The notes beneath the pieces are model-generated. The model had not been told where the DNA came from. It made no database searches and was given only the letters and a program-made list of their open reading frames with translations. A DNA stretch of 64,000 nucleotides from an uncultured bacterium (lineage in GTDB: Bacteria > Patescibacteriota > Minisyncoccia > UBA6257 > 2-01-FULL-56-20), in NCBI GenBank assembly GCA_963718575.1, contig OY970358.1, positions 194,172-258,171 of the forward strand. Reading direction: 5' to 3'. A program made the translations under genes and the position numbers. This document shows positions 1,081 to 60,471 of the stretch, piece after piece (position 1 is the first letter of the stretch; every line of letters begins with the position of its first letter).

Positions 1081-1090
1081 AATAGCAAAA

Positions 1091-1502
<412 letters not shown>

Positions 1503-1513
1503 GGTAGTGAGTA

Positions 1514-2233
1514 TTAATAGTTGCCAGATGATGGCTTACGGCGTGCGCGGCCGGCCTCTTCGTCTTCTTGTTTGGCGGTCTTTGCAAAAACCTCTCCTTT
1601 ATATATCCAAACGTGGATGCCGATTGTGCCATACGTTGTGTACGCAGTGGCGGTTGAATAATCAATATCAGCGCGGAGCGTCTGTAACGGCAAGGAACCT
1701 TTTGAAAGGTGCTCATTGCGCGCGATCTCGTTACCGTCAAGACGACCCTTCATGAGGATCTTTGCGCCCTTCACGTCGCGGTTCTGCAATATCTGCTCCA
1801 GATATTTCTTCATGGTGCGACGGAAGCGGATGCGCTTCTCCAAATCCCATGCGATTTGCTGTGCGGTATAGCGGGCGGAAACATCCGAGCGCTTCAGTTC
1901 CTCTACGTTCAAGCTGAGCGCAACCTTCGAGCGCGTCTTGCGTACCTTCATGAGCGCATCGACGACGGCCTTGTTGAGATCCTCCATACCCTTGCCTCCG
2001 CGGCCGATGATGAGTCCCGGGCGGGCGGCGCGGATGAACACGCGAAGATTTCCCTGCGTGCGCTCGATCTCGATCGCGGCGACGCCGGCGAGCGCGATCT
2101 TCTTGTTGATTGTATTGCGGATCGCTTCATCCTCCTCAAGGAACTTGGCATAGCCGCCCTTAAGGAACCAGCGCACCGGCCAGCCTTTCGAGACGCCCAA
2201 CCGATATGAATTTGGATTGATCTTTTGTCCCAT
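1514..2233 (-). CDS. rpsC: 30S ribosomal protein S3
   Basis: 239-aa [21 protein letters not shown]...KH domain...[11 protein letters not shown] with a basic tail. Intact. Confidence 0.95.
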
Positions 2234-2238
2234 GGTGA

Positions 2239-2758
2239 TTATTTATCGCCGCTCTTACGGCCAAAATTTCTGCGCCAGAATCCCGGGTTCTGCTTCGATT
2301 CCGTGAGCGGTTTATCGCCCGGCGCTTTCGGCTTCTTGTTCTTTGAACGCACATCCTGGCCCGGCGGAAGTTTTGCCTTCTTCGGAGGCACGATCGTAAA
2401 GCGCGACTTCAAGTTCTCGTTGACGCCGAGCACCAACGTGACGTGGCTCATCTTCTTCTGGATCGGCGACGCACTGCCGCGCGCGCGCGGAAGCATGCGC
2501 TTCAACATCGGGCCGCCGTCAACGCGGACGCTCGATACAAAAAGATGCTGAGGATCTGCGTGTTTGTTATTTTTAGCATTCGCAACGGCCGAACGCAAGA
2601 GTTTCAAAAGCGGCTGCGAAGGGCGGCGGGTCGGTCACGATCAATTGCGCCTCGGCTTCGTTCACCGGCAATCCCTTGATGAGGTCTCCAACGCTGCGTA
2701 CCTTGCGGGGCGCCATGCGGAGGAAACTTATTTTTGCCGAGTATTCTTTGGATTCCAT
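2239..2758 (-). CDS. rplV: 50S ribosomal protein L22, split by an apparent frameshift (~2610-2640), with an unusual ~55-aa basic C-terminal extension
   Basis: N-terminal half (MESKEYSAKISFLRMAPRKVRSVGDLIKG...) is in ORF 2573..2758. C-terminal half (SAVANAKNN...VDGGPMLKRMLPRARGSASPIQKKMSHVTLVL) is in ORF 2239..2607. The two frames overlap. Confidence 0.85.
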
Positions 2759-2763
2759 GGATG

Positions 2764-3102
2764 TTATTTCTTAGCGGGCGCGGCCTTTGCGGCTGCAGCC
2801 TGGGTCTTAGCGGTCTCGGTAGCTTTGATCTCGAGTTCCTTCTGCATCTTGCCTCCGTGACGGATGAACTTCTTGGTCGGCGAGAATTCACCGAGACGAT
2901 GTCCTACCATTTCTTCCGTTACGCGCACTTCAACGTGCGTGCGGCCGTTATGGACGCCGAACACCTGCCCCACGAATTCCGGAGCGATCTCCGAAGCGCG
3001 CGACCACGTCTTGATGACCGTGCCGCTGCCGGACTTGGTATTCAAAACCTTCTTCATAAGTTTTGGATCGACGAACGGGCCTTTTTTGAGTGAACGTGAC
3101 AT
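2764..3102 (-). CDS. rpsS: 30S ribosomal protein S19
   Basis: [19 protein letters not shown]...[29 protein letters not shown] is canonical S19. Confidence 0.95.
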
Positions 3103-3119
3103 GATAGTGAATTTAAAGA

Positions 3120-3969
3120 CTATTTATTGTTGCGGTTACGCAAGCTGACGCGCCGCTTGACGATAAATTTGCTCGACTTGTTCTTCTTGTTGCGCGTCTT
3201 GTGACCGCCGGTGACCTTGCCCCACATGGTCTTCGGTTTTCGGGTGCCGCGCGGCTGTGCGCCTTCACCGCCTCCGTACGGATGATCAACCGGGTTCATA
3301 GCACTGCCGCGGACCGTCGGACGGATGCCCATCCAGCGCGAACGGCCGGCCTTGCCAAAGTTTACGAGCGACCATTCCGAGTTCGAAACCTGACCGAGCG
3401 ATGCAAGGCACGTCCAGAGGACGCGGCGGACCTCGCCCGAGTTGAGCTTGAGGTCGGTGTAGTTATCGGCATTGGCCAAGACTTCTGCATACGCACCGGC
3501 GGAGCGGGCGAGCTGTCCGCCGCGTCCCGGTGCCATTTCAATATTATAAACCTGCTGACCAACCGGAATGTTCTTGAGTTGCATGCGGTTTGCCGCCCTT
3601 GATCGGCGCCGCCTCCGCAGTCACGATCTCATCCCCTACCTTCAACTTTTCCGGCGCCAAAATGTATGTCTTCGTTCCGTCGGTGTATTTTACGAGCGCG
3701 ATGAACGCGGTGCGATACGGATCGTACTCGATCGTCTCGACGATCGCTTTGGAATTCAAACGGTCCTGTTTGAAGTCGATCACGCGATAGAGCTTCTTGT
3801 TGCCGCCGCCCTGATGGCGTACAGTGATGCGGCCTGCGGAGTTGCGGCCGGAATGCGTCTTCAAGCGAACCACGAGCGGCTTATAAGGACGCGCGCCCTT
3901 GGTCAGGGTGCTGTAGTCCGAAGACGTCATGTTGCGCCGCGAAGCGCTTGTTGGCTTGAAGGATTTCAT
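3120..3969 (-). CDS. rplB: 50S ribosomal protein L2, interrupted by an apparent 1-nt insertion near 3589
   Basis: N-terminal 141 aa (ORF 3544..3969: ...[22 protein letters not shown]...) and C-terminal 154 aa (ORF 3120..3584: [16 protein letters not shown]...HPYGGGEG...) are both L2. Removing one A in AAACCGC restores [15 protein letters not shown]. Confidence 0.9.
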
Positions 3970-3973
3970 GAAA

Positions 3974-4253
3974 TTAGTTCAGATCGATTTTTTGCCCCTC
4001 TTTAATAGTGACGATCGCCTTGCGATATCCTTCTTGGTCGCCCCTTGATGCCGCGGCCGGATTTCTTCATCTTGCCCGCGCGATTCACCATGTTCACACC
4101 AACCACGTCCACTTTATAGAGCGCATGGATAGCTTTCTTTACCTCCGGCTTCGTCGCAGCGGATTTTACCATAAAAACGTACTGATTGGAAGTGGTCAGC
4201 ATCGTTGCTTTCTCCGTGATCCAGGGTTTTTTGATGAGAAGATGGTCGGTCAT
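3974..4253 (-). CDS. rplW: 50S ribosomal protein L23, C-terminal frameshift near 4025
   Basis: MTDHLLIKKPWITEKATMLTTSNQYVFMVKSAATKPEVKKAIHALYKVDVVGVNMV is L23. The conserved end ...KAIVTIKEGQKIDLN* is found only in the adjacent frame, ending at TAA 3974..3976. ATG overlaps the rplD stop (ATGA). Confidence 0.8.
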
Positions 4254-4907
4254 GGCGGTATTATATCTTGTAATGCTTTTCGATCGCTTCCGACGGCGCT
4301 CTTGTCGATAAAGAGGTTCTTGTGGTTCATGATGTCGTAAATATTGAGCGAGCCGGCCTCGATCGTCTTTGTTTTCTGGAGGTTGCTCGTCGCGCGGAAC
4401 AAGATTCTTGTTCGCGTTATCCGACACCAAAAGCACATCAAAGCGCTTATCGCCCTTCTTTGGCGACAAGACCATCTTCAACGCCGACGCAACAGTCTTC
4501 GTCTTTGGCGTCTCGACAACAAGCGTGTCGAAGATCTTCACCTCGCCATCTTTTATCTTTTTGGAAAGCACGGAAAAGAGCGCGACGCGCTTCATCTTCT
4601 TGTTCACCTTCTGCGAATAGTCCTTGTCATTGCGGGGTCCATGCGCTTTTCCGCCGCCTACCCAGATCGGAGAGCGGGTGGAACCGTGACGAGCGCGGCC
4701 CGTTCCCTTCTGCCGCCACGGCTTCTTGCCGCCGCCGCGCACTTCGCTGCGATCCATCACGTGCGCCCACGGCTGGCGCGCATTTGCGAGCTGAGCTTCC
4801 AACACCTGCTGAACGAGTGTCGCATTCCACTTCGTACCAAAAACCGTCGCGGGCAATTCCACCGTTCCCACCACTTCGTTCTTTAAATTGTAGACGTCGG
4901 CTTTCAT
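4250..4907 (-). CDS. rplD: 50S ribosomal protein L4, interrupted by an apparent 1-nt indel near 4398
   Basis: First 170 aa (MKADVYNLKNEVVGTVELP...GGGKKPWRQKGTGRARHGSTRSPIWVGGGKAHGPRNDKDY...) are L4. The continuation RATSNLQKTKTIEAGSLNIYDIMNHKNLFIDKSAV is found only in ORF 4250..4441, in another frame. Confidence 0.85.
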
Positions 4908-4912
4908 GGAAG

Positions 4913-5476
4913 TTATTTGGAAGATGAAATTTCGATCAATCCGCCGCGGCCGCCCGGAACGGCGCCCTTAAGGAAAAGCAAATTGTTTTCTTTATCGATT
5001 GCGGCAACGACGAGGTTCTTGATCGTGACGCGGTCAACACCCATGTGTCCTGCCATGCGGCGGCCCGGGACGACGCGCTGGAAAGCGGTCGAGCCGATGG
5101 AGCCCGGCGCGCGGTGACGATTCTTCTGACCGTGGGTTTTAGGACCGCCGCGGAAGTTGTAGCGCTTGACGACGCCCTGGAAACCGCGACCCTTCGTGAT
5201 GCCGCTCACGCGCACCTTGTCGCCTTCTACAAACGAATCAACGCCGACCAAATCATCAATTTTTAACGTAGAAATATCCACCTTCTGATTGGGGCGGTTC
5301 TTGAACTCGCGCTTCTTCTTGCCCAACGTCAATTGGACGGCCTCATAGCCGTCGCGCTCTGCGGTGCGCACGATGGAAACCTTGTTCGGTTCCGCCTGGA
5401 CGACCGTAACCGGAAAGACTTTTCCGTCCTTCCAAATCTGCGTCATTTTAAGTTTTTTGCCTAAGATATATGACAT
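4913..5476 (-). CDS. rplC: 50S ribosomal protein L3
   Basis: MSYILGKKLKMTQIWKDGKVFPVTVV...GITKGRGFQGVVKRYNFRGGPKTHGQKNRHRAPGSIG is L3. The 24-codon upstream extension in the ORF track is likely non-coding. Start chosen at the conserved MxxILGKK. Confidence 0.9.
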   Translation of the reverse strand: MSYILGKKLKMTQIWKDGKVFPVTVVQAEPNKVSIVRTAERDGYEAVQLTLGKKKREFKNRPNQKVDISTLKIDDLVGVDSFVEGDKVRVSGITKGRGFQGVVKRYNFRGGPKTHGQKNRHRAPGSIGSTAFQRVVPGRRMAGHMGVDRVTIKNLVVAAIDKENNLLFLKGAVPGGRGGLIEISSSK

Positions 5477-5488
5477 TTTCTTGATCGT

Positions 5489-5564
5489 TTCCGAGTGAAG
5501 TACTATCTCCCTCACTACCGCGTAGGAACGCTCAAACGTTCGGGACACAGTACTTCACTCGGAA
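5489..5564 (-). promoter_or_regulatory. 16-bp perfect inverted repeat (ttccgagtgaagtact / agtacttcactcggaa, 44-nt loop) immediately upstream of rplC; candidate leader hairpin/attenuator
   Basis: Seen directly in sequence. Position is just 5' of the rplC start codon, at the junction between the inserted block and the rest of the S10 cluster. Confidence 0.4.
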
Positions 5565-5583
5565 AATCCAGTAATAAATTATT

Positions 5584-5611
5584 AAACTCCGGTTCTGACA
5601 CCGGAGTTTTT
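5584..5611. terminator. GC hairpin (ctccggt-tctgaca-ccggag) followed by TTTTT; intrinsic-terminator-like
   Basis: Stem-loop plus T-run in sequence. Lies between the NUDIX gene and rplC. Confidence 0.4.
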
Positions 5612-5804
5612 AGCACAATCAACCGACCTACCCCGCTTTTAGACGGGATCCAGAGAAAACGGCGACCGTTTTTCTGCGCCTGGCCCGCGAACACGTTTCG
5701 CGTTCATAGCCGAGGCATAAGGGGTAAATATTTGCATAAAAACTACCGAGCAAACCTTGATGACGATTATAGCAAAGCGGGCGGTAAAGTCAAATGGGGT
5801 CTCT

Positions 5805-5922
5805 GCCTCCTGGCTTCGCATACCCTTTTGAGGGACGGGTTCCGCGCTGCTGCGCGGCCCCTTACGCTCGCCGCCTTCGCGGCTCCGCGATACCCTCAAA
5901 AGGGTATGCGAAGCCAGGAGGC
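5805..5922. repeat. Structured repeat element, copy A: 30-bp perfect inverted-repeat arms around a 58-nt core
   Basis: Arms gcctcctggcttcgcatacccttttgaggg and its exact reverse complement. The core shares ~80% identity with the element at 51345..51459 (gttccg...ctgctg...cggcc...cctta.gctc...gccttcgcg..tccg) although the arm sequences differ. Confidence 0.6.
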
Positions 5923-5959
5923 CAAAATCACCGTTTGGCGTATGCGCCCGCTATGAAAA

Positions 5960-6409
5960 TTATTTTAGATGCTTTTCGAAATAAGCTCTATATCTTTCAA
6001 AAGTATAAGCAAAACCGCCATGAAGTGGCTGTGGTAATTTGTCTATTTTATACCATCCTAGCTCCTCGATTTTTTCCGGTTCTCCGTTCTTAACCTCCGC
6101 AGGGTCAACAAGTATGAAAAATGGCACGGCGATCCAATGGGTTTTGACGCCGTCTTGATCGCGAAAAATATCATGCGCTGGCAATTGTTCCTGAACAACT
6201 CCCTTACAGCCGTACTCCTCCATAACTTCTTTTAAAACGTTTTCCTCCAATGAAATTTCAAATTCCATTTTCCCCGAACCGGTATCCCATCGGCCATGTT
6301 CATCTCTGCACTTTATTGTTCGTTTGTGCATCAGAAGATTCCCCTTTCCGTCATGACAATAAAACGGGGTGGTAACTCCAATAAAATCAAAGCCGATTTT
6401 CATATGCAT
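5960..6409 (-). CDS. NUDIX hydrolase
   Basis: Nudix box GSGKMEFEISLEENVLKEVMEEYGCKG (Gx5Ex7REVxEExG). 149 aa. Local GC is clearly lower than in the ribosomal genes. Confidence 0.7.
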   Translation of the reverse strand: MHMKIGFDFIGVTTPFYCHDGKGNLLMHKRTIKCRDEHGRWDTGSGKMEFEISLEENVLKEVMEEYGCKGVVQEQLPAHDIFRDQDGVKTHWIAVPFFILVDPAEVKNGEPEKIEELGWYKIDKLPQPLHGGFAYTFERYRAYFEKHLK

Positions 6410-6462
6410 AGTTTATGATGGGAATTATGTACAGGCTAATAGAATTTGTGCCAATCTTGCAG

Positions 6463-7095
6463 TTAAAACAGATATCGCCCCGAAGCCCAGCCTCGCTTTC
6501 CGGGCGGCGCAATGGCTTTTACTGCGTTGCCATCTATATATAACTCATCCTGGACAATTTCGCCTTTTCGAATAGCTTCTTCCCATGCCTGAGTTGGTTC
6601 TTTACCCCACGGAAGCCATGGCGTCAGGTCGTCCATAATAATAACGGTGTCAGGGCGAGCAAGCGCTTTCATATTATCAATATCTGCTTTTACGATTTCG
6701 TACTCGTGACCGCCATCAATAAAGATGAGGTCGAATTTTTGATCGGGATTCTGCGCTGAAAATTCTGGCACTGTTTTTGTCGAATCGCCAAGAATGAGTT
6801 TGTGCCTTCCGGGAAATTTGCGATTAATAATTTGCTTTGCGCCGGAAACGAATGAATGCGTTCCGATATCGAATGAAACTACCGCTATATCCTTCCGCGC
6901 TTTAAGAAATGCATACGAAGAAAATCCAAGGTGAAAACCAATTTCTGCGATGCTTTTTACATTCGGCCGCTTTGCTGTTTTATAAAGATATTGTAATTCC
7001 TGCGGAGAAGAAGCTCCTTCATTGATTTTATAACCACGCAATCGAAGCTCCCCATAGATCAGTCCTTGCGCGATATTAAATCGAAACGAGTTCAT
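6463..7095 (-). CDS. Class I SAM-dependent methyltransferase (Methyltransf_24/TylF-CmcI-like)
   Basis: Glycine-rich SAM motif IAEIGFHLGFSS and DLIFIDGGHEYE, typical of the O-methyltransferase/CmcI family. AT-richer than flanking sequence. Confidence 0.6.
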   Translation of the reverse strand: MNSFRFNIAQGLIYGELRLRGYKINEGASSPQELQYLYKTAKRPNVKSIAEIGFHLGFSSYAFLKARKDIAVVSFDIGTHSFVSGAKQIINRKFPGRHKLILGDSTKTVPEFSAQNPDQKFDLIFIDGGHEYEIVKADIDNMKALARPDTVIIMDDLTPWLPWGKEPTQAWEEAIRKGEIVQDELYIDGNAVKAIAPPGKRGWASGRYLF

Positions 7096-7103
7096 TTATC
7101 GGA

Positions 7104-7661
7104 TTATTCGAGTATTATTTTAAGTAATTCCGGAAATTCCTCCGTTCGCACTTCGTCGTCTCCGGCATAGTGTCCCCTTCCTTTCAATTCGATGATTGTC
7201 CCGCCCAGGGCATCGTGAAACATTTTCAAACTTTTTTTGCCATTCTCCGCTTCGTTGTCGGCGGTGAACATGACGATGTTATTTACCCGCGATTTAATCG
7301 TTTCATCTATCGCATAATTATAAAACTTTATCTTCTCCTTGCTGCTCGTGCCGATCTTCCACGGGGCGACAAGAATAAGCTTATCGATTTTTCTCTTTGA
7401 ATCGCCAAGCCAACGGACGAGAAACGCGCATCCGCAGCTGTGCCCGATCAGCGTCGTCTCCTCGTTTATTTCTTTCTTTTCAAATTCCGATTTCCACTTC
7501 TCATAGCTCGGTACCCAAGACTCTGGCATTTGGGGTGTTGTGGCTGGTATGCCATGGGCAATCAATGTTTTTTGAATCCACGAGATCCAGTGTCTATCGT
7601 CTGGTTTTATATTCTCCTGCGGACCAGAGGAACATCCGTGGATAATGATTGCGTTTTTCAT
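7104..7661 (-). CDS. Alpha/beta-hydrolase, YdeN/RBBP9-like serine hydrolase
   Basis: Start chosen at MKNAIIIHGCSSGPQEN. GxSxG nucleophile motif GHSCG. The ORF-track N-terminal 70 aa is an alternative-frame read-through into the upstream gene. Confidence 0.55.
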   Translation of the reverse strand: MKNAIIIHGCSSGPQENIKPDDRHWISWIQKTLIAHGIPATTPQMPESWVPSYEKWKSEFEKKEINEETTLIGHSCGCAFLVRWLGDSKRKIDKLILVAPWKIGTSSKEKIKFYNYAIDETIKSRVNNIVMFTADNEAENGKKSLKMFHDALGGTIIELKGRGHYAGDDEVRTEEFPELLKIILE

Positions 7662-7668
7662 CTCGCTT

Positions 7669-8208
7669 CTACTTCCGCACCTCGATCCCGCCGAACACGG
7701 CGTCGCCGTGGATGACGAGCGTGACCGCGCCGTCGCCGCCTTGAGCGTTGCTTGTGTCCACGCCACCGAGGAAGACGTTCGCGGTGGAGACCACTTTCCA
7801 ATCCTTGGGGATGGTGATCTGGATGCCGCTGAATATTGATGAGACTTCGAGGTGGATCTCGCTGCCGTCAACCTTGACCTGGGTGAGGTCGATCTCGCCG
7901 CCGGAGAAGACCATGACGATCTTCCCTCCTTTAAAGTGCTCGGTAGCGTAGGAACGGTTCAGCGCGCTGAAAATGGCAACTTCGTCGATGGTGCGTTCGC
8001 CGGATGCGGGCGCTGCTGTGCCGTGGTCGTGACCATGATCGTGGTGATGATCATCCCAGTGCCAGCCGTCAGCCACCGAACGGCGCGCGATCATGCGAAC
8101 GCCGATCGCAATGAGGACGAGAGCAAAGAGAAAGCCGAAAAACGGGATGCCAGTGAGAGCGCTGATACCGATGAGTATTAAGATGATGCCAACGATGAGT
8201 CCTCCCAT
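7669..8208 (-). CDS. Membrane protein with LiaF-like/DUF2154 (toast-rack) C-terminal domain and a His-rich linker
   Basis: N-terminal TM helix. HWDDHHHDHGHDHG His cluster. C-terminal beta-rich repeat ...GEIDLTQVKVDG...VIHGDAVFGGIEV resembles cell-wall stress LiaF C-termini. Confidence 0.4.
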   Translation of the reverse strand: MGGLIVGIILILIGISALTGIPFFGFLFALVLIAIGVRMIARRSVADGWHWDDHHHDHGHDHGTAAPASGERTIDEVAIFSALNRSYATEHFKGGKIVMVFSGGEIDLTQVKVDGSEIHLEVSSIFSGIQITIPKDWKVVSTANVFLGGVDTSNAQGGDGAVTLVIHGDAVFGGIEVRK

Positions 8209-8224
8209 GGTTTTTGTTACGAGT

Positions 8225-8830
8225 TTAATATTGCGTGTGCGTGTTTTGGATCGCGGCCATGACGGTGGGCGAAAGCGAGCTCACGACCGGCGAATTGGTT
8301 TTGACGAGGCCGTAGAGGATGACGGCGACGAGGAACGCGACCGCGAGAAGGAACACGATGAATCGCGCAAACCAGTGGCGGCCGAGCACGATGCTCGCGC
8401 CCCACAAGATGAGCAAGATCGGCCAGAACGGCGCGATCGCCAGCCAGAAACCGTGCGAGACGAAGCCCATCGTATAGAGCAATCCAACGACGCCCACAAA
8501 AAGCACGATCATCCCAAAGAACAGGCCGCCCTCGTGATGATGATCGCGGCGCCAGTCTTCGCGCTGCATCCGGCGCTCGGCGCGCTGTTGATCCCGTTGC
8601 TCGTGATGATGCTGCTTCCACCCATCCTTGCGCGCACGCCAGTCTTCTTTGGTCTCTGATTTGGCATCGGACGCGGTCTTCCTCCAATCCGCGCCGCCAT
8701 GCTCCCCTGACGTATTTACGTCCATGCCAAAAACCTGCACATGTGGGCGCGGGCCACCCTGCCCGACTTCTTGCTTGGCCTCGACTTCACTGGCGTTATT
8801 TTCCTGCTCCTGCTTGTTTTCTTCATCCAT
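8225..8830 (-). CDS. Polytopic membrane protein with acidic/His-rich cytoplasmic N-terminus (hypothetical; PspC/LiaF-TM-like)
   Basis: 201 aa. Charged N-terminal half (HHHEQRDQQRAERRMQREDWRRDHHHEGG) then 4 predicted TM helices. Co-oriented with the LiaF-like gene. Confidence 0.35.
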   Translation of the reverse strand: MDEENKQEQENNASEVEAKQEVGQGGPRPHVQVFGMDVNTSGEHGGADWRKTASDAKSETKEDWRARKDGWKQHHHEQRDQQRAERRMQREDWRRDHHHEGGLFFGMIVLFVGVVGLLYTMGFVSHGFWLAIAPFWPILLILWGASIVLGRHWFARFIVFLLAVAFLVAVILYGLVKTNSPVVSSLSPTVMAAIQNTHTQY

Positions 8831-8851
8831 AAAACCATTATAGCACGAACT

Positions 8852-9232
8852 CTAGACGCGCTCCTCTAGAGTATTCACGCGTTCGTTCATCCCCTCAATT
8901 AATATTTTAAGCGAGCCGTATCCTTCCAACGTAAAATCAAATTTTGAATCTAATTTTTCGAGCAAGAGGCCGGTCTTTTTATTTGATTCTTCGAAACGAT
9001 CTATCCTCTTTTCAAAAAGATTCATCCGTTCATCTAACCTCTCTGCCACTGAATCCATTTTGCCGGCAATAAGAAGCATTCTTCCATCCACTCCGTTCTT
9101 TAAATGGTCAAACTTATCATCAAACGCAATAACAAGCCCGTCCATCTTCTTATCGATGGCCCCCACCTTGCCCTCAAGGGTTTCAACCCTCTTATCCAGA
9201 TTTTTTAAAAGAATATTTTCCTTTTCAAGCAT
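8852..9232 (-). CDS. Small coiled-coil protein, paralog family member 1
   Basis: 126-aa heptad-rich ORF. Promoter/upstream motif is shared with 19197..19481 and 55026..55388. Confidence 0.5.
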   Translation of the reverse strand: MLEKENILLKNLDKRVETLEGKVGAIDKKMDGLVIAFDDKFDHLKNGVDGRMLLIAGKMDSVAERLDERMNLFEKRIDRFEESNKKTGLLLEKLDSKFDFTLEGYGSLKILIEGMNERVNTLEERV

Positions 9233-9238
9233 GCACTT

Positions 9239-9266
9239 ATTTTAGAAGCGCAAGAGAATAAGTCAA
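9239..9266 (-). promoter_or_regulatory. Sigma70-like promoter TTGACT-N16-TAAAAT placing the TSS at or near the ATG (leaderless)
   Basis: RC of 9233..9266 reads TTGACTtattctcttgcgcttcTAAAATaagtgcATG. Nearly identical arrangement upstream of 19197..19481. Confidence 0.5.
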
Positions 9267-9296
9267 AAACTTTTTAAGAAATTTTTAATGTTTAGT

Positions 9297-10304
9297 TTAC
9301 GGCAGCAGCTGCTTTATCTCCTCTGCATTCAGCGTGTATGCCCGCACGAACGAATCGTCAACGTGCGCATAGAGAACGCCGCTCCCGTTTCCTTGCTCCA
9401 CAAACTGGCTGGCAAATGTGATCGTTCGCGCTTCGCTATCCTGGATGAACGGCTCGGGCGAGACCCAATCGATCGTGCCATTCTCGTAGTCGTAAATAAA
9501 CAATCCGACCGAAAAAATACCGTATTTTATTTTGCCATCCACGCGCTGGTTCGCTTCGCGGCCGTTGATAACGCCCAATAGCTTCCCTTGGCCAACATCA
9601 ATAAAATTTTTCGGAAAGAGCGGACCGGGTGATGCGTGCCCGCCGATCCACGAAATATTCTGCTCTGCCGGATGGAACACCGTCTCGCCAAACTTCCATG
9701 CCGCACCCATATCTTCCGTAATGGCGACACGCACCGTGGAATAAGTGAAATCTTCTCCCGTCGCCGACGACTCGATCAAATTATAATGAACGCCATGTTT
9801 ATTCGTCGGCGCAATGGAAACTTCCTTAGCGCCGCCCGTGCCAACATCCATCAGAACCGGCATCGTCATCTCCAACGAATCCAGATCTTTGCCGACGGCA
9901 TGGCCAAGATGGATGAGCATTCCATGCTTTCCAATATTATGAAACGGCATCGTAAAGTAGAGATGCGTCAATCCGACCTTCTCATCAATCCAAATGTCCG
10001 GGTCTTCAAGGCCGAGAAAATCGAGCGTTTCACCCGCTAATTGCGCAACTATCTCTTCCTGATTTTTTATCATTAAGCGCTCCCCGATTGAAAAACGATC
10101 GAGCGAATCTCCGCGAACCTTATGCAACACGCTCCGATCAATATACCCAGACGTCGCCACATCGCCCGAACGATTTGTGATGCACCGAATGACGCCTTCT
10201 TTATATCCCGAACGCGGGTCGAGCGAGATTGCCATCACATGCTCAAACTTTCCATTCGTCTCCACGGCCTTCCCCGGATGCTCAATATATCCTTTCATCC
10301 TCAT
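9297..10304 (-). CDS. Beta-propeller glycosidase-like protein (GH130/DUF377-like?), hypothetical
   Basis: 335 aa with EDPDIW- and DPR-type blade motifs and repeated hydrophobic beta segments. Family assignment is uncertain without an HMM search. Confidence 0.3.
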   Translation of the reverse strand: MRMKGYIEHPGKAVETNGKFEHVMAISLDPRSGYKEGVIRCITNRSGDVATSGYIDRSVLHKVRGDSLDRFSIGERLMIKNQEEIVAQLAGETLDFLGLEDPDIWIDEKVGLTHLYFTMPFHNIGKHGMLIHLGHAVGKDLDSLEMTMPVLMDVGTGGAKEVSIAPTNKHGVHYNLIESSATGEDFTYSTVRVAITEDMGAAWKFGETVFHPAEQNISWIGGHASPGPLFPKNFIDVGQGKLLGVINGREANQRVDGKIKYGIFSVGLFIYDYENGTIDWVSPEPFIQDSEARTITFASQFVEQGNGSGVLYAHVDDSFVRAYTLNAEEIKQLLP

Positions 10305-10813: not shown

Positions 10814-10958
10814 GGCCCAGGTTGGCACCATGGACCCACGAGGCGCACGTCCTCGCACCCCCGCGTATAGGCACCAAGAGAAATATTAAATAAAGATTAA
10901 AAATATTTTGACAGATCCTTTTGAATTGCTATTATGATCACAGGTGCCAACCTGGGCC
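10814..10958. repeat. 16-bp perfect inverted repeat (ggcccaggttggcacc / ggtgccaacctgggcc) bracketing ~113 nt that contains a TTGACA-N16-TATTAT promoter
   Basis: Seen in sequence. Intergenic between rpsJ and tuf. Confidence 0.4.
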
Positions 10959-10982
10959 ATGCAATATTATGTTTGGATCCAC

Positions 10983-11010
10983 AAAAAACCCGGCAACGGG
11001 TTTTTTGTTT
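10983..11010. terminator. Bidirectional intrinsic terminator aaaaaa-cccggcaacggg-tttttt
   Basis: Short GC stem with flanking A/T runs, ~40 nt downstream of the + strand promoter at 10908..10935. Confidence 0.6.
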
Positions 11011-11337
11011 GCGCGAGGTATCGAACGACATCTAAATATTGGTTACATAAAAAAAGAGCGTCGCACTGATAGAGCCGCATTTACTCGTCTTCGTCTTCCT
11101 CTGCCTCTGGCGTGACTTTGACAATCTTATCGTCCTTCGCGTCAACGATCAGAAAAAATATATGCGTGGCTCCGGTGATGAGTCCGCCAGTTTTTCCCTC
11201 TGGATCAAAAAACTCTCCTCTCCTTGGGACTCCTGGAGGCGTCAGCGTCGTGAAAAAAATGTAATAACATAAGCAAATAAAAACCACCCTTGAAGGGAAT
11301 CGCGGAGCCGCGAAGGCATCTTCATCCCTCGAGCAGT

Positions 11338-11416
11338 AACAAAAACACCCCTTCCTTTTTTGACGGTCACGTTCCTACGTGGCATTTCCGTCAAAAAAGG
11401 AAGGGGTGTTTTTGTT
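11338..11416. repeat. Conserved long hairpin element, copy 1, immediately 3' of tuf
   Basis: Near-perfect 79-nt palindrome aacaaaaacaccccttccttttttgacgg-TCACGTTCCTACGTGGCATTTCC-gtcaaaaaaggaaggggtgtttttgtt. The central 27 nt are identical to copy 2 at 16026..16105, while the outer stems covary. Confidence 0.6.
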
Positions 11417-11421
11417 ACTGC

Positions 11422-12623
11422 TTACTTGATGATCTTCGTCACGACGCCGGCGCCGACCGTCTTGCCGCCCTCGCGGATGGCGAAACGCATCTTGTCTTCC
11501 ATAGCAACCGGGGTGATGAGCTTGACCGTGATCTTGACGGTGTCGCCCGGCATGACCATTTCCATTCCTTCAGGAAGGGTGACCTCACCGGTCACGTCGG
11601 TCGTGCGGATGTAGAACTGCGGCTTATACCCCTTGAAGAACGGAGAGTGACGGCCGCCCTCTTCCTTCGAGAGCACGTAGATCTCACCTTCGAACTCCGC
11701 GTGCGGGGTGACGGTGCCCGGCTTCGCGAGCACCTGTCCGCGCTCCACGTCCTCTTTCTTGAGACCGCGGAGGAGCAAACCGGCGTTGTCGCCTGCCTGA
11801 CCATCATCCAAGCTCTTGTTGAACATTTCGATGCCGGTGACGACGGTCTTCTGGGTCGGCTTCAAACCGACGACCTCGACTTCCTCGTTCACTTTGACGC
11901 GACCGCGCTCGATGCGGCCGGTGACGACCGTGCCGCGGCCTTCGATCGAGAAGATGTCCTCGATAGGCATAAGGAACGGCTTGTCGAGTTCGCGGACCGG
12001 ATCCGGGAAGTAATCGTCCATCGCCTTGATCAAGATCAAGGATCGGCTTCGCATCTGCGGAATCAGCATCGGTCGCGTTCAACGCCTTCAATGCCGAACC
12101 GCGGATCACCGGGGCATGCTCGCCATCGTAGCCGTTCTTGGTGAGCAACTCGCGCACCTCGGACTCTACGAGATCGATCAATTCCGGATCATCTACCATA
12201 TCGCACTTATTAAGGAACACGATGATGTTCGGCACACCGACCTGGTGAGCGAGCAAGATGTGTTCGCGGGTCTGCGGCATCGGGCCGTCAGTCGCGGCAA
12301 CGACGAGCACTGCGCCGTCCATCTGGGCGGCGCCCGTGATCATGTTCTTAATGTAGTCAGCGTGTCCCGGAGCATCAACGTGCGCATAGTGGCGCTTCTC
12401 CGAAGAATATTCGGAGTGATGCAAAGCGATCGTGATGCCACGAGCCTTCTCTTCCGGAGCATTGTCGATCTGATCGACTTTCTCCTCTTTCTTTGCCCAA
12501 CCCTTCAAAAACAAAACGTGCGTGATCGCCGCGGTCGAGCGTCGTCTTGCCATGATCGACGTGGCCAATCGTACCTACGTTGAGGTGCGGCTTGGACCGG
12601 TCGAACTTTTCTTTTTCTGCCAT
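11422..12623 (-). CDS. tuf: Elongation factor Tu, interrupted by two apparent 1-nt indels (~12536 and ~12032)
   Basis: Three overlapping frames together read [29 protein letters not shown] | [36 protein letters not shown]...ADAKPILDL | [25 protein letters not shown]...[14 protein letters not shown]. This gives a full-length EF-Tu. Confidence 0.9.
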
Positions 12624-15549: not shown

Positions 15550-16025
15550 ACCCGATCCGTTTATCACCCGAGCCTGCCGCTGTCGAGTGAGGGGTTTCGT
15601 TTTTTTAGATTCGCATCCCCGACCGCCCTGTATCCCCGCCACCTCACGCATGCCCGCCGCCGACGAGAAAGCGTCCGGGAATGAGGGATGACTCCACCAT
15701 ATCCGCCGGTACGGCAGTCGCTTCACTCGCGCCGTAGAAGATCACCCTCGCCCGCATTCCTTCCTTTTCTGAAGTTCCGAGAGCATACCCAGAAGGGGTC
15801 GTCAAAATTATTGTCCGGCAATTTCCCGGAGGGCAAAAGCATTTCCTTAGCGTATATAGGAGAAAAAGAAAATCCCCTCCATCATGAATGAAAGGGATTT
15901 TCTATCCGCCCGCGTCTACATATAACGTAGACAGGGACTACCGCCCCACGGGCATGTTTTTATAGTATGCCTCTACGCATCCACCGTCAAATAACTTTTA
16001 ATGATTTTTTAACCATCATGTTTCT

Positions 16026-16103
16026 AAAAACAAAACACCCCTCCTCTTTTTAACGGTCACGTTCCTACGTGGCATTTCCGTTAAAAAGAGGAGGGGTGTT
16101 TTG

Positions 16104-18725: not shown

Positions 18726-19142
18726 TTATTTTGCCTTCGCGCGCTTGGCGCCATACTTTGAGCGCTGCTGTTTGCGATTGGCCACGCCAACGGTATCCAG
18801 CACGCCGCGAACGATGTGATAGCGCACGCCCGGAAGATCCTTTACGCGGCCGCCGCGCAACATAACAATCGAGTGCTCTTGTAAGGTGTGGCCTTCGCCC
18901 GGGATGTATGCGGTGACTTCCATGCCGTTCGTCAAACGAACGCGCGCAACCTTACGGATGGCGGAGTTCGGTTTCTTCGGCGTCTGAGTGAACACCTTCA
19001 CGCACACGCCGCGCTTGAACGGCGACGTGGAATCCACCGGACGGTTATGGATAGAATTAAAATAGTATGCCAAAGCCGGCGCTTTGCTCTTTGTGGCAAG
19101 CGGCTTGCGACCCTTTTTTATGAGTTGACGGATAGTAGGCAT
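18726..19142 (-). CDS. rpsL: 30S ribosomal protein S12
   Basis: [13 protein letters not shown]...[59 protein letters not shown]. Confidence 0.95.
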
Positions 19143-19196: not shown

Positions 19197-19481
19197 CTAT
19201 CCCCGCTCCTCCACCACCCGGAGGCGGACGTCGAAATCCTTATTGGCGCCCTGGAGTTTAGAAATGTCTTCATTTGTGCGCACCGCATATGCAGAAAAGT
19301 GTGCATTAATGCCTTCTGTTACTTTGCGAAGATCCGCGATCGCCGCGAGAACTTCATCTTTAAATGACCTTAACTCATCTTTGGTGGCCATTCCGCCCAT
19401 CGTGGTCTTCATCTCTATCATCTCGGCGTGAACCACGTCGAAATCTTTTTGAATTGCGAGTGCTAATTTATCTATTGTCAT
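19197..19481 (-). CDS. Small coiled-coil protein, paralog family member 2
   Basis: 94 aa. ...GGMATKDELRSFKDEV... aligns with ...EGFMATAKDLLSLTERV... of 55026..55388. Shares its promoter with 8852..9232. Confidence 0.5.
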   Translation of the reverse strand: MTIDKLALAIQKDFDVVHAEMIEMKTTMGGMATKDELRSFKDEVLAAIADLRKVTEGINAHFSAYAVRTNEDISKLQGANKDFDVRLRVVEERG

Positions 19482-19487
19482 GCACTA

Positions 19488-19515
19488 ATTTTAGAGCGCG
19501 TGCAGAGAAAGTCAA
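19488..19515 (-). promoter_or_regulatory. Leaderless promoter TTGACT-N16-TAAAAT-N6-ATG, copy of the 9239..9266 promoter
   Basis: RC reads cattaaaaaatcctaaaaaagtttttgactttctctgcacgcgctcTAAAATtagtgcATG. Upstream A-tract motif is conserved with copy 1. Confidence 0.5.
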
Positions 19516-19614
19516 AAACTTTTTTAGGATTTTTTAATGAATTAATTCAATACACAGAATCACCTGCACTTTTCATTTTTCCCAACTCACGCTATAAATA
19601 GATGGTCGCAAATA

Positions 19615-54788: not shown

Positions 54789-55025
54789 CCGTCAGATTTC
54801 TGGCGCAACAGCCAGGTGGGTGGACTCAACTGCGGTCCACGGACGGCAGAGATTTGTCCTCCCCTTTAAAATTGTTTGATCCGAAATCTGCGCGGGATCT
54901 GACTCTATTATACCACCGCTCCGGCAAAAGATATCAATGTGCATAGCGCTTCACTACCACAAAGCCCATTAAATCTATATTAAAAGAGTTTTGACTTCCC
55001 CATTGTAAGGATTATCCTTATTGGC

Positions 55026-55388
55026 ATGATAAAAAAGCAAAAAGCGAAAAAGATGACCCTTGAGGATCTCGCGGTAAGAATAGACAAAAAGATAGATAGT
55101 AAGATAGATAAATCCATAGGCGATCTGGCGATCAAGGTCCAGGAAGGATTTATGGCGACCGCGAAAGACCTGCTTTCACTCACCGAACGGGTAAAATCCA
55201 TTGAAGAACGACTCGCCGGATACGACAAGGAGTTCGGAGGTATTCACAGCAACTTTGATATCGTTTTCACTGAGCTGAAAAGCATCCGGGAGCGCCTCGA
55301 TCGGATAGAAAAGAACGATACGAGCGCCGAAGTCATCAACCTCGACCTTCGCGTGAAAAAACTGGAAAAGAAGGCCGGATTGAAGTAG
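55026..55388 (+). CDS. Small coiled-coil protein, paralog family member 3
   Basis: 120 aa. Aligns with 19197..19481. Upstream aaaagagttttgact motif is shared with the other two paralogs. Confidence 0.5.
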   Translation: MIKKQKAKKMTLEDLAVRIDKKIDSKIDKSIGDLAIKVQEGFMATAKDLLSLTERVKSIEERLAGYDKEFGGIHSNFDIVFTELKSIRERLDRIEKNDTSAEVINLDLRVKKLEKKAGLK

Positions 55389-55400
55389 AATCAGTCTGCA

Positions 55401-56744
55401 ATGAAACTCCAGACCCGCAAGCGCATATTCTATGTGTTTATTCTTTTATTCGTCGTGATCGGCGCGGCCGTCGTGCTCTATGCCGAGGGGTGGCGACTCA
55501 ATCTCTCCACGCTCGAGGCCGAAAAAGCGGGCGGTATTTACGTCCGCTCCTACCCCGACGACGCGCAGATCGCCCTTAACGGAAAATCTGTTCCGAACCA
55601 ATCCGCATTTCTGAGCCGCGGAACGTTTATCTCCGGCCTTTTCCCAAAGACGTATACCCTTCAGCTCTCGGCGGCCGGATACGACGCCTGGACCGAAAAT
55701 ACGCAGGTCGTCCCCTCGCTTGTCGCGGAAATGAAATATGCCGTGCTCGTGCCAAAAACGGCGACGAATATCGCGACGACGACCGCAGCGGTAAGCGATT
55801 TCTTTGAGACGGACGGGCAGACGATCGTCACCGATTCCAGCGCGACGATCTCGTGGCTTGGGAAGATCATCGGATACGGCACCGTAGTGAGCCACAGCGC
55901 CGACCTCAGAACCGCGGTCATTCGTACGATCAGCGCGAAGACGGGTGCGACAACCTATTCTTTTTATGATTTCACCACCGCTACAAGCACCAATCTTTCC
56001 GCGCTGCTACGACAGTCGGATATCCGGTCCACGCCGACGACAAACGTATTCGTCGATCCGTACGATGATACAAACATCATCACCCAGACCCCGGCGCAGA
56101 TTGTGGCAATCGACTCGGACACCCATCGCACGACCGTCGTCGACACGGCGCCCGCAGGAGAGACGATCGAGTCTCCCATCGCCATGTCGCCGTCGGTCAT
56201 GGCATGGGCGCGCTATGCCAACGCATCCGACACGTCGCAAATCGTGATCTACGACAAATTTTCCGGCGACACGACCGATGATTCACTCAGGATCATCGGC
56301 CCGGTAAAACAGCTCGCATGGGTGCGGAATGATGTGCTGGGTATCCTTGCAAGCGACAACACGCTCTATCTTTACAATGTACCGAACGAACAGCTTTCCA
56401 CGCTCGCGAATGACGTGAAACAATTCTATCCCACGAGCGACGGCACCGCGGTCGCGGCGCTCGAATATGACAGCCTCGAGGTTTTCTCTTTCACCACGCA
56501 GGATTACTATCGTTTCGCCCTCCCCGACATCGCGGATGTGCAAGGGCTCGTCTGGTATAAAGACGAGGCACATCTTTTTGTGCAATATTCGGACCACGTT
56601 GCCTTCCTCGATCTCGCCGATACCAACCTGAAAAATCTCACGACCGTATCAGCGGGAACGGACGCCTCCTACGATCCGCAGGAAAACGCGCTCTATCTTA
56701 TCGATCAGGGGCAGAAACTGCTTCGCTTCGATTTCCCGAATTAA
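55401..56744 (+). CDS. Membrane-anchored PEGA-domain protein with C-terminal beta-rich (propeller-like) region
   Basis: N-terminal TM helix. ...VRSYPDDAQIALNGKSVPNQSAF...TYTLQLSAAGYDAW resembles a PEGA domain. 12 nt after the coiled-coil gene. Confidence 0.45.
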   Translation: MKLQTRKRIFYVFILLFVVIGAAVVLYAEGWRLNLSTLEAEKAGGIYVRSYPDDAQIALNGKSVPNQSAFLSRGTFISGLFPKTYTLQLSAAGYDAWTENTQVVPSLVAEMKYAVLVPKTATNIATTTAAVSDFFETDGQTIVTDSSATISWLGKIIGYGTVVSHSADLRTAVIRTISAKTGATTYSFYDFTTATSTNLSALLRQSDIRSTPTTNVFVDPYDDTNIITQTPAQIVAIDSDTHRTTVVDTAPAGETIESPIAMSPSVMAWARYANASDTSQIVIYDKFSGDTTDDSLRIIGPVKQLAWVRNDVLGILASDNTLYLYNVPNEQLSTLANDVKQFYPTSDGTAVAALEYDSLEVFSFTTQDYYRFALPDIADVQGLVWYKDEAHLFVQYSDHVAFLDLADTNLKNLTTVSAGTDASYDPQENALYLIDQGQKLLRFDFPN

Positions 56745-57742: not shown

Positions 57743-57881
57743 CTGAGGTATTTCTTTAAGAGAAATTTAACCCGCTGCAGGTAGTATTAAATAATGATTA
57801 AAAGATATTTGACGACTATTCCTTTTTGCTATATTAAAATAGCGGGTGGCAATCCGGAGTCAGCACCGTGTTGGACCGAAT

Positions 57882-57913
57882 AAAAAAGGACTCATAACTG
57901 GGTCCTTTTTTAT
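57882..57913. terminator. Bidirectional intrinsic terminator aaaaaagga-ctcataa-ctgggtcc-tttttt
   Basis: Lies between convergent doxX-like and eno. Confidence 0.65.
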
Positions 57914-57931
57914 TACTATCCCCTCGTGGAA

Positions 57932-60138: not shown

Positions 60139-60341
60139 AGGGGTATTATACAACAAAAAACCACTGACTGATGGCTTTTGAAGTTGGGAGGTCGTTTAAT
60201 CTTTGCTGTGAATAAAATCCGAGAGTATCTGTCCTGGATTCGAACCCGTTTCTCCTGTTTAGCAAAACAAGATCCTACCGACATAGACGACCGGCCCATG
60301 TCAGAATAAAACAATGGCCATGAAAACTATCTAAAACAAAA

Positions 60342-60371
60342 ACAGCCACATATTGTGGCTGCCCTTGCTGC
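60342..60371 (-). terminator. Intrinsic terminator (cagccacatattgtggctg + T-run on minus strand) 3' of ppsA
   Basis: Seen in sequence. Confidence 0.6.
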
Positions 60372-60471
60372 TAAACAGGATTTTCGTCCACGGTCTCCGT
60401 GGAACCTTGTTTCCTAACTATCATACCGTTTGCAACTAAAACGTCAAATAAGATTTAATGAAAATTTAATC

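What the first reader, a model, noticed from the sequence alone, without database searches (positions are those of the whole stretch)
8852..9232. Family of three small coiled-coil proteins sharing a conserved leaderless promoter and upstream A-tract motif
The paralogs are at 8852..9232, 19197..19481 and 55026..55388. Members 2 and 3 align in protein sequence (MATKDELRSFKDEV vs MATAKDLLSLTERV). Members 1 and 2 share nearly identical upstream DNA (cattaaaaa[a]tYctWaaaaagtttttgact-N16-TAAAAT-N6-ATG). Member 3 keeps aaaagagttttgact at the same distance. This implies a common regulator and leaderless translation. Two of the three sit directly upstream of envelope proteins (LiaF/PspC-like membrane proteins; a PEGA-domain membrane protein), hinting at an envelope-associated function.
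Basis: seen in the sequence. Interest (0 to 1): 0.55.

Follow-up and report, generated by a model that had tools for sequence, protein, structure and literature searches.

The report
Leaderless small coiled-coil proteins, generic promoter
Three small all-helical proteins of an uncultivated Paceibacterota (CPR) bacterium are real, distantly related and probably made from leaderless mRNAs, but the DNA motif they share is this lineage's ordinary strong-promoter design, not a private regulatory signal.

Summary
M1 and M2 upstream DNA is 47/66 identical. All three have TTGACT-N16-(-10)-N6/7-ATG. In 19 orthologous promoters from about 8 genomes the ATG sits 34-35 nt after TTGACT, although synonymous sites are saturated. 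That strongly supports leaderless mRNAs.

The "common regulator" reading is not supported. The same two-box A-tract element (ATTAAA-N5-ATTAAAA-N4/5-TTGAC) also precedes five unrelated, terminator-bounded candidate sRNAs in the window (8 sites, 0 in shuffles). It also precedes their orthologues elsewhere, and its position fits an UP element. A -10 hexamer 6-7 nt before the ATG is also common here (19 of 79 ORFs).

The proteins are orphans with no family hit above threshold. Pairwise BLAST fails. Profile-profile comparison links M2 to M3 (90%, E 1.5e-6) and M1 orthologues to M3 (89%, E 2e-6). M1 and M2 are not linked directly.

Synteny is conserved:
- M1 always precedes a split LiaF-like pair (LiaI-LiaF-TM plus Toastrack).
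- M3 usually precedes a 447-aa membrane-anchored protein.
- M2 always heads rpsL-rpsG-fusA.

Function is inferred only. Verdict: ordinary promoter biology, a modestly interesting lineage-specific protein family.

The parts
8852..9232 (-). M1: 126-aa acidic protein with no Cys, Trp or Pro, predicted as one continuous helix (coiled-coil type).
   Evidence: ORF. AF2 gives one helix, residues 2-125, pLDDT 92. dN/dS about 0.15 against orthologues. About 20 relatives, including 66-95 aa positional orthologues.
9233..9290 (-). M1 promoter: two A-tract boxes (9267..9290), -35 TTGACT (9261..9266), 16-nt spacer, -10 TAAAAT (9239..9244), 6 nt, then ATG.
   Evidence: The same layout is found in 5 orthologous loci.
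19197..19481 (-). M2: 94-aa helical protein (helix 3-29, helix 34-93). Conserved N-terminal box MTIDxLAxAIQKDF, MATKDEL motif and C-terminal DVRLRVVEKRG.
   Evidence: dN/dS about 0.16.
19482..19539 (-). M2 promoter: A-tract boxes (19516..19539), TTGACT (19510..19515), N16, TAAAAT (19488..19493), N6, ATG.
55026..55388 (+). M3: 120-aa basic helical protein, the hub that links the M1 and M2 families. The true start is the leaderless ATG at 55026, not the internal MATAKD start used by one gene call.
54967..55025 (+). M3 promoter: A-tract boxes (54967..54990), TTGACT (54991..54996), N16, TATCCT (55013..55018), N7, ATG.
8225..8830 (-). LiaI-LiaF-TM membrane protein directly after M1. It has its own extended -10 (TGcTATAAT) 6 nt before its ATG.
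   Evidence: Pfam LiaF-TM 27.4 bits against cut-off 27. Conserved after M1 in 7 loci, and the -10 is conserved.
7669..8208 (-). TM + LiaF-like C-terminal (Toastrack-type) protein, third gene of the conserved M1 cluster.
   Evidence: Pfam LiaF-like_C 29.5 bits against cut-off 29. Synteny.
55401..56744 (+). 447-aa protein with an N-terminal membrane anchor, directly after M3. The PEGA hit is below threshold.
   Evidence: An orthologue follows M3 in L024, L025 and L026; FtsEX follows instead in L009.
18726..19142 (-). rpsL (S12), first gene of rpsL-rpsG-fusA, directly after M2 with no terminator between. It has its own TTGACA-N17-TACAAT promoter.

Best explanation
M1, M2 and M3 are three very divergent members of a Paceibacterota-restricted family of small (10-15 kDa), soluble, fully alpha-helical proteins. 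They most likely form homo-oligomeric coiled-coil rods.

Each gene has a near-consensus sigma-70-type promoter (TTGACT, 16-nt spacer, TAnnnT). The promoter is strengthened by a two-box A-tract element at about -58 to -40, read here as an UP element contacted by the RNA polymerase alpha C-terminal domains. The -10 hexamer ends 6-7 nt before the ATG, so transcription should start at or next to the start codon. The mRNA would then be leaderless and translated without a Shine-Dalgarno sequence.

The shared upstream DNA is therefore the lineage's generic strong-promoter plus leaderless design, kept by selection for high expression. It is not the operator of a dedicated regulator.

Function is inferred from conserved neighbours only:
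- M1 works with the split LiaF-like membrane pair (LiaI-LiaF-TM plus Toastrack), as the cytoplasmic partner of a PspA-free envelope-stress-type module.
- M3 works with a membrane-anchored 447-aa protein.
- M2 is expressed at the head of the rpsL-rpsG-fusA operon.

Shown: the ORFs, purifying selection, promoter anatomy and its conservation, the generality of the motif, the synteny. Inferred: the transcription start site, alpha-CTD contact, oligomeric state and all function.
For: Real proteins: dN/dS is 0.11-0.22 with synonymous sites saturated. The N-termini are conserved from the proposed ATG.

Promoter and leaderless layout: in 19 promoters from three families and about 8 genomes the ATG is at +34/+35 from TTGACT. 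The 80% consensus is ATTAAAa.atcaTtAAAAagTTT-TTGACT-Tt...TAaaaT.

Generality of the motif:
- 8 two-box+TTGAC sites in the window against 0 in 100 shuffles.
- Five of them precede 57-93 nt units that end in strong terminator hairpins (z -2.9 to -7.5) and have no Rfam match.
- Orthologous sRNA promoters occur in other genomes.
- Ribosomal-protein promoters (rpsL, rpsJ) have -35/-10 hexamers but no A-tracts.
- Leaderless layout is common: 19/79 ORFs against 2.7% of all ATGs, and only 11/79 ORFs have an SD-like 4-mer.
- UP elements with roughly 10-bp phased A/T tracts are general in bacteria (PMC12641261).

Family:
- hhalign M2 family vs M3 family: 90%, E 1.5e-6, near full length.
- Short M1 positional orthologues vs M3 family: 89%, E 2e-6.
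- P0050 vs M3: 40% identity over 72 columns, E 7e-6.
- Each family HMM's best non-self hits among 933 window ORFs are the other members.

Structure: all-helical AF2 models. No Cys, Trp, Pro or TM segment, and heptad a/d periodicity.

Synteny: M1-LiaF-TM-LiaF_C in 7 loci. M2-rpsL in 8 loci. M3-447aa in 4 of 5 loci. No terminators lie between the M genes and their downstream genes.
Against: - No transcription start or expression data exist. Leaderlessness and promoter strength rest on sequence geometry alone.
- M1 and M2 are not detectably related directly (hhalign 0.7-4%).
- The M1-M3 alignment register differs between runs, as coiled-coil similarity often does.
- Against composition-matched shuffles the cross-family HMM scores are only about top 1 in 1,000-9,000.
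- The three families share an extra sub-motif (AAAAnnTTTTTGACTT, plus TAAAATwAGTGC in M1 and M2) that the sRNA promoters lack. A family-specific layer of control is therefore not excluded.
- The downstream genes have their own promoters, so co-expression is not proven.
- The LiaF-type Pfam hits are only at threshold.
- M3 is followed by FtsEX instead in one genome.
Confidence: 0.62

Rival explanations
1. The direct repeat ATTAAA-N5-ATTAAA(A) next to the -35 is the operator of a dedicated DNA-binding regulator, for example a response regulator that binds 11-bp-phased direct repeats. The three proteins and the five sRNAs would then form one co-regulated regulon.
For: The motif is sharply defined, phased at 11-12 bp, and limited to 8 sites in 64 kb. 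It is absent from the rpsL and rpsJ promoters. It is conserved across genomes although synonymous sites are saturated.
Against: All sites already have consensus -35 and good -10 hexamers, so no activator is needed. The box positions (A-runs near -42 and -54) match the proximal and distal UP subsites (established knowledge). The downstream units are heterogeneous: unrelated sRNAs and proteins.
Confidence: 0.15
2. The three proteins are not homologous. They are independent small coiled-coil proteins, and their apparent similarity comes from heptad composition. They look alike upstream only because each uses the same generic promoter.
For: BLASTP finds nothing for M1/M2 or M2/M3. hhalign M1-M2 gives 0.7-4%. 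The M1-M3 register is unstable. PDB, Pfam and NCBIfam return only generic coiled-coil noise.
Against: M2-M3 align over nearly full length with three shared blocks: xIxxLAxxIQxxF, MATKDxL and DxRLRVxExK. Short M1 positional orthologues share MIKKQKx-TLExL and EGF...L-ER..IEER with M3. Reciprocal best hits appear among 933 ORFs.
Confidence: 0.2
3. M2 is a translation-linked factor. It is the first cistron of the str operon, and its strong promoter mainly serves to drive rpsL-rpsG-fusA. M1 lies in the S10-L3 gap for the same reason. On this reading the family is ribosome-associated or growth-rate-associated rather than envelope-associated.
For: M2 is directly upstream of rpsL in the same orientation in 8/8 loci, with no terminator. 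M1 always lies between rpsJ and rplC. The promoter resembles rrn P1-type promoters: UP element, 16-nt spacer and a GC-containing discriminator (the resemblance is from established knowledge).
Against: rpsL has its own 11/12-match promoter. Synteny near ribosomal operons is generally conserved among close relatives, so it carries little functional weight. M1's tightest conserved neighbours are membrane proteins. M3 is not near translation genes.
Confidence: 0.1
4. The ORFs are not translated. The loci are further small RNAs of the same promoter class.
For: The same promoter class drives five non-coding units.
Against: dN/dS is 0.11-0.22 with saturated dS. The reading frames and N-termini are conserved, and length changes are in-frame heptad insertions. 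No terminator follows the ORFs.
Confidence: 0.03

Closest known systems
UP-element-containing sigma-70 promoters (E. coli rrnB P1 type; phased A-tracts upstream of -35 in Bacillus subtilis sigma-A promoters)
   Same: Consensus-like -35 and -10 hexamers. A/T tracts phased about 11 bp apart at roughly -42 and -54. 16-nt spacer. Used for short, presumably abundant transcripts.
   Different: Box sequence is ATTAAA(A) rather than the E. coli AAAWWTWTTTT/AAA consensus. Alpha-CTD contact is untested. The element is found here at sRNA and small-protein genes; rRNA promoters were not available for comparison.
Leaderless mRNAs (abundant in Actinobacteria such as Mycobacterium tuberculosis, in Deinococcus and in archaea)
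   Same: The -10 hexamer ends 6-7 nt before an ATG and there is no SD sequence. Many genes in the genome share this layout.
   Different: No start-site mapping exists for this lineage. Here even genes inside clusters (the LiaF-TM gene) carry their own -10 right before the ATG.
[quoted passage not shown]
   Same: M1 is invariably followed by a LiaI-LiaF-TM protein and a TM+LiaF_C (Toastrack-type) protein. A cytoplasmic coiled-coil protein next to such membrane proteins parallels LiaH/PspA next to LiaI/PspBC.
   Different: M1 has no PspA_IM30 or Snf7 similarity, is half the size, and is predicted as one helix rather than an ESCRT-III-like hairpin. No LiaSR two-component genes lie nearby. LiaF is split into two genes.
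Small bacterial and viral coiled-coil families (XhlA, DUF16, DUF7310, HSBP1/prefoldin-like, sll1863 family)
   Same: Size, heptad composition and weak sub-threshold profile hits.
   Different: No hit reaches a curated threshold. There is no TM segment, unlike XhlA. No relatives were found in viral contigs.

Membership tests
Sigma-70 promoter with UP element | -35 and -10 hexamers close to TTGACA/TATAAT with a 16-18 nt spacer | tested here: met
   TTGACT-N16-TAAAAT (M1, M2) and TTGACT-N16-TATCCT (M3). Conserved in 19 orthologous promoters.
Sigma-70 promoter with UP element | A/T-rich tracts between about -40 and -60, phased by one helical turn, found at otherwise unrelated promoters | tested here: met
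   Boxes sit at -58..-52 and -47..-40. 8 sites in the window against 0 in shuffles, and 5 of them precede unrelated sRNA-like units.
Sigma-70 promoter with UP element | Stimulation depends on binding by the RNA polymerase alpha C-terminal domain | not testable with these tools
   Needs in vitro transcription or footprinting.
Leaderless mRNA | The transcription start coincides with the start codon | tested here: inconclusive
   The geometry fits and is conserved: the -10 ends 6-7 nt before the ATG in 19/19 promoters. No 5'-end data are available.
Leaderless mRNA | No Shine-Dalgarno sequence; AUG start codon | tested here: met
   The 6-7 nt between the -10 and the ATG leave no room for an SD. 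All three start with ATG.
Single paralogous protein family (M1, M2, M3) | Significant pairwise sequence similarity | tested here: not met
   BLASTP: M1/M2 none; M2/M3 E 1.6; M1/M3 E 0.002 over 43 residues.
Single paralogous protein family (M1, M2, M3) | Significant profile-profile similarity | tested here: inconclusive
   M2-M3 90%, E 1.5e-6. Short M1 orthologues-M3 89%, E 2e-6. M1-M2 0.7-4%. Reciprocal best hits among the window ORFs. The coiled-coil composition is a caveat.
PspA/IM30/LiaH (ESCRT-III superfamily) | PspA_IM30 or Snf7 domain; helical-hairpin ESCRT-III fold of about 220 aa | tested here: not met
   No Pfam or NCBIfam hit at E<=1. M1 is 126 aa and modelled as one helix. Foldseek was run only on the M2 model, against the PDB, and returned no matches.
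Lia/Psp-type envelope-stress gene module | Adjacent LiaI-LiaF-TM and Toastrack (LiaF_C/DUF2154) proteins | tested here: met
   LiaF-TM 27.4 bits against cut-off 27 and LiaF-like_C 29.5 against 29. The pair follows M1 in 7 loci.
Lia/Psp-type envelope-stress gene module | Linked LiaSR-type two-component system or PspF-type regulator | tested here: not met
   None among the called genes within about 4 kb on either side in the window or in the orthologous loci.
Lia/Psp-type envelope-stress gene module | Induction by envelope stress; membrane protection | not testable with these tools
   The organism is uncultivated and there are no expression data.
Pfam XhlA / DUF16 / DUF7310 coiled-coil families | Score above the Pfam gathering threshold | tested here: not met
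   Best scores: DUF7310 22.6 against 40; XhlA 17.9 against 34.7; DUF16 17.8 against 40.
PEGA-domain protein (M3 neighbour) | PEGA domain above the Pfam threshold | tested here: not met
   16.2 bits against cut-off 20.8.

The most novel reading that the evidence does not exclude
The M family is the missing cytoplasmic effector class of PspA-free, Lia/Psp-like membrane-maintenance modules in CPR bacteria. On this reading the proteins are very abundant, leaderless-expressed coiled-coil rods that dock onto LiaI-LiaF-TM/Toastrack and other membrane-anchored proteins and stabilise the envelope of these tiny cells. The promoter sub-motif they share (AAAAnnTTTTTGACTT and TAAAATwAGTGC) would add a family-specific control layer on top of the generic UP element.
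Probability: 0.15. Interest if true: 0.6.

Novelty: new variant of a known kind. Interest (0 to 1): 0.3.

Why it matters
Promoter and translation-initiation rules for CPR/Patescibacteria are almost unknown experimentally. This locus set gives three usable results:

- A comparative definition of a strong promoter class in one Paceibacterota clade: two ATTAAA boxes, TTGAC, a 16-nt spacer and a -10.
- Evidence that leaderless initiation is common there. This bears on gene calling, because several database gene models for these very proteins start at the wrong codon.
- The same motif points to at least five unannotated conserved small RNAs.

The protein family itself is an orphan. Its firm linkage of M1 to a split LiaF-like pair offers a concrete, testable candidate for a PspA-independent envelope module in organisms with minimal genomes. 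None of this overturns current understanding.

Tried and rejected
- Pairwise BLASTP of the three proteins gave essentially nothing.
- Pfam, NCBIfam and PHROGs returned only sub-threshold coiled-coil noise.
- Profile searches of the PDB returned only generic trimeric coiled coils such as HA2, spike HR1 and designed peptides. These were rejected as compositional.
- Foldseek of the M2 model against the PDB gave no match. No fold search was attempted for M1, because a single helix is uninformative.
- An exhaustive HMMER search with the M1 profile gave about 15 true small relatives. Below those were long repetitive coiled-coil proteins, judged non-specific.
- The genome-contig scan found only 4 species representatives with M2. 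Viral contig scans for all three families were negative, so a phage origin was rejected.
- Rfam at gathering and at E<=1 found no match for the sRNA-like units.
It was repeated with a narrower alignment.
- A literature search for leaderless or promoter data in CPR found nothing specific to this clade.
- The idea that the ORFs are untranslated sRNAs was rejected on dN/dS.
- The internal MATAKD start for M3 (gene call P0029) was rejected because the N-terminus MIKKxK and the promoter geometry are conserved.

Full report
**Observation.** M1 is 8852..9232(-), 126 aa. M2 is 19197..19481(-), 94 aa. M3 is 55026..55388(+), 120 aa. Read on their coding strands, M1 and M2 have cATTAAAAA..(C)TTAAAAAGTTTTTGACT-N16-TAAAAT-N6-ATG and are 47/66 identical upstream without gaps. 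M3 has cATTAAATCTATATTAAAAGAGTTTTGACT-N16-TATCCT-N7-ATG. These matches exceed chance. TTGACT-N15-18-TAWAAT has 3 hits against 0.06 expected. A two-box A-tract+TTGAC pattern has 8 hits against 0 in 100 shuffles.

**Organism and reality of the genes.** Database relatives are annotated as Candidatus Paceibacterota/Parcubacteria (CPR) MAGs from bog and soil metagenomes. M2 has 24 clusters of relatives, M3 has 7, and M1 has about 20 once an exhaustive profile search is added. Against orthologues the three genes show dN/dS of 0.11-0.22 while synonymous sites are saturated (pS 0.56-0.79). The N-termini are conserved from the proposed start codons. They are therefore real protein-coding genes. All three lack Cys, Trp, Pro and any hydrophobic segment, and they show heptad periodicity. 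AlphaFold2 models M1 as one helix (residues 2-125, pLDDT 92) and M2 as two helices (3-29 and 34-93, pLDDT 78). Each family varies in length through in-frame repeat insertions in the N-terminal half.

**Are they one family?** BLASTP says no for M1/M2 and M2/M3, and gives only E 0.002 for M1/M3. Family profiles change the picture.
- The M2 family aligns with the M3 family over nearly full length at 90% probability, E 1.5e-6.
- The short (66-95 aa) proteins that occupy M1's genomic position in other genomes align with M3 at 89%, E 2e-6.
- One of these, P0050, is 40% identical to M3 residues 1-64 (E 7e-6).
- When each family HMM is run against all 933 ORF segments of the window, its best non-self hits are always the other members.

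M1 and M2 are not linked directly (0.7-4%). The M1-M3 register is not stable between runs. Shuffle controls give only p of about 1e-3 to 1e-4. I conclude that this is a distant superfamily with M3 as hub, with a residual 20% chance that it is coiled-coil convergence. No Pfam, NCBIfam, PHROG or PDB match passes a threshold. Foldseek finds nothing for the M2 model. No relatives occur in viral contigs.

**Leaderless expression.** I aligned 19 promoters of the three families from the window and from loci of about 8 other genomes. The ATG is at +34 or +35 from the first T of TTGACT in every case. That places a TAnnnT hexamer 6-7 nt before the ATG. With a -10 at -12..-7, the A of the ATG is +1. This geometry is kept although synonymous sites have turned over completely. 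The start site itself is still inferred. The layout is not special to these genes. 19 of 79 ORFs in the window have a -10 hexamer 6-7 nt before an ATG, against 2.7% of all ATG trinucleotides. Only 11/79 have an SD-like 4-mer. The LiaF-TM gene after M1 even has its own conserved extended -10 (TGnTATAAT) 6 nt before its ATG, immediately after the M1 stop codon.

**The A-tract motif is generic.** The same architecture, ATTAAA(W)-N4/5-ATTAAA(A)-N4/5-TTGAC-N15-17-(-10), occurs at five further sites. The TTGAC positions are +10908, +42829, +57809, -60447 and -15990. Each of these is followed by a 57-93 nt unit that ends in a strong hairpin plus U-run (z -2.9 to -7.5). These units have no convincing ORF and no Rfam match. 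Two of them have orthologues with the same promoter in related genomes. The rpsL and rpsJ promoters have good hexamers but no boxes. The boxes put A-runs near -42 and -54, which are the proximal and distal UP subsites, and they accompany a consensus -35. Phased A/T tracts upstream of -35 are a general bacterial feature (PMC12641261). The parsimonious reading is a clade-wide strong promoter, not a dedicated regulator. A sub-motif does remain shared by the three protein families but not by the sRNA promoters: AAAAnnTTTTTGACTT, plus TAAAATwAGTGC in M1 and M2. It could reflect inherited promoters under strong selection, or an extra control layer. I cannot separate these two.

**Context and likely role.**
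- M1 lies between rpsJ (sometimes with a 335-aa ORF between) and a LiaI-LiaF-TM protein followed by a TM+LiaF_C (Toastrack-type) protein. This holds in all 7 loci examined, even where M1 is only 31-40% identical or shrunk to 67 aa. These domains belong to the Psp/Lia envelope-stress network, where they co-migrate with the coiled-coil effector PspA/LiaH (PMC11237479). M1 is not a PspA homologue, and no LiaSR genes are nearby. I therefore propose it works like a small cytoplasmic partner of a PspA-free module, by inference only.
- M3 is followed by the orthologue of the 447-aa N-terminally anchored protein in 4 of 5 loci, and by FtsEX in one. The PEGA assignment is below threshold.
- M2 is always directly upstream of rpsL-rpsG-(..)-fusA.
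- No terminator separates any M gene from its downstream gene. Read-through from these strong promoters is therefore possible.

**Verdict.** The sequence observations hold. It is wrong on the point that gave it most of its interest, because the shared motif is ordinary promoter architecture for this lineage and is found at unrelated units. What remains is a lineage-specific orphan family of small coiled-coil proteins with one robust membrane-module association, plus a useful promoter definition for a CPR clade.

Noticed in passing
window ~10885..11015 (+); orthologues in L005, L007, L016, L019, L020, L022: Candidate sRNA between tuf and rpsJ on the opposite strand. It has the two-box promoter, TTGACA at 10908 and -10 TATTAT. 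The transcript is about 70 nt (GGUGCC...GUUUGGAUCCAC) and ends in a strong terminator. Promoter and RNA are conserved in at least 5 other genomes. No Rfam match.
   Followed up: partly
window ~15862..16012 (-); orthologues L002 (-5852), L013 (-5505), L014 (-5782): Candidate structured sRNA of about 93 nt (AUGCCCGUGGGGCGGUAGUCCCU...; MFE -49 kcal/mol, z -7.5) with the same promoter class and a terminator. Conserved near fusA in related genomes. Gene callers place small spurious ORFs over it.
   Followed up: partly
window ~42806..42920 (+), ~57786..57915 (+), ~60333..60470 (-): Three more short terminator-bounded units (57-80 nt; z -3.9, -4.7 and -5.6) behind the same two-box promoter. No Rfam match. 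Conservation was not examined.
   Followed up: partly
window 11364..11389 and 16054..16079 (-): An exact 26-nt sequence (GGAAATGCCACGTAGGAACGTGACCG) forms the loop of two long, otherwise different GC/AT hairpins placed just after tuf and just after fusA. They look like bidirectional terminators with a shared loop. It was not found in the loci of other genomes.
   Followed up: partly
window 11422..12623 (-): The tuf (EF-Tu) gene is split over three reading frames. Residues 1-30, 30-206 and 195-399 match in frames -2, -3 and -1. That implies two frameshifts near ~12535 and ~12020. Assembly indel errors are most likely, since EF-Tu is essential.
   Followed up: partly
whole window: Shine-Dalgarno-like motifs are rare (11/79 ORFs). 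A -10 hexamer directly before the ATG is frequent (19/79), including at genes inside clusters. Genes after rpsL (rpsG, fusA) show neither feature. Translation initiation in this lineage seems largely SD-independent.
   Followed up: partly
P0029-P0032; L009 405, L024 150, L026 422: Public gene calls for M3 relatives start at the wrong codon. One uses the internal MATAKD start. Others use an ATG that lies inside or next to the -10 hexamer (MIVDMIKK, MDMIKK, MLSGMIK). Leaderless starts appear to mislead the gene callers.
   Followed up: yes
window 9297..10304 (-): A 335-aa ORF with no Pfam or NCBIfam hit, also leaderless (TATAAT-N6-ATG). It is conserved between rpsJ and M1 in several related genomes (65-78% identity).
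   Followed up: no
window 8225..8830 and 7669..8208 (-): LiaF appears split into two genes. Both products carry His-rich, highly charged linkers (HHHEQRD..., HHHDHGHDHG), which hints at metal binding.
   Followed up: no
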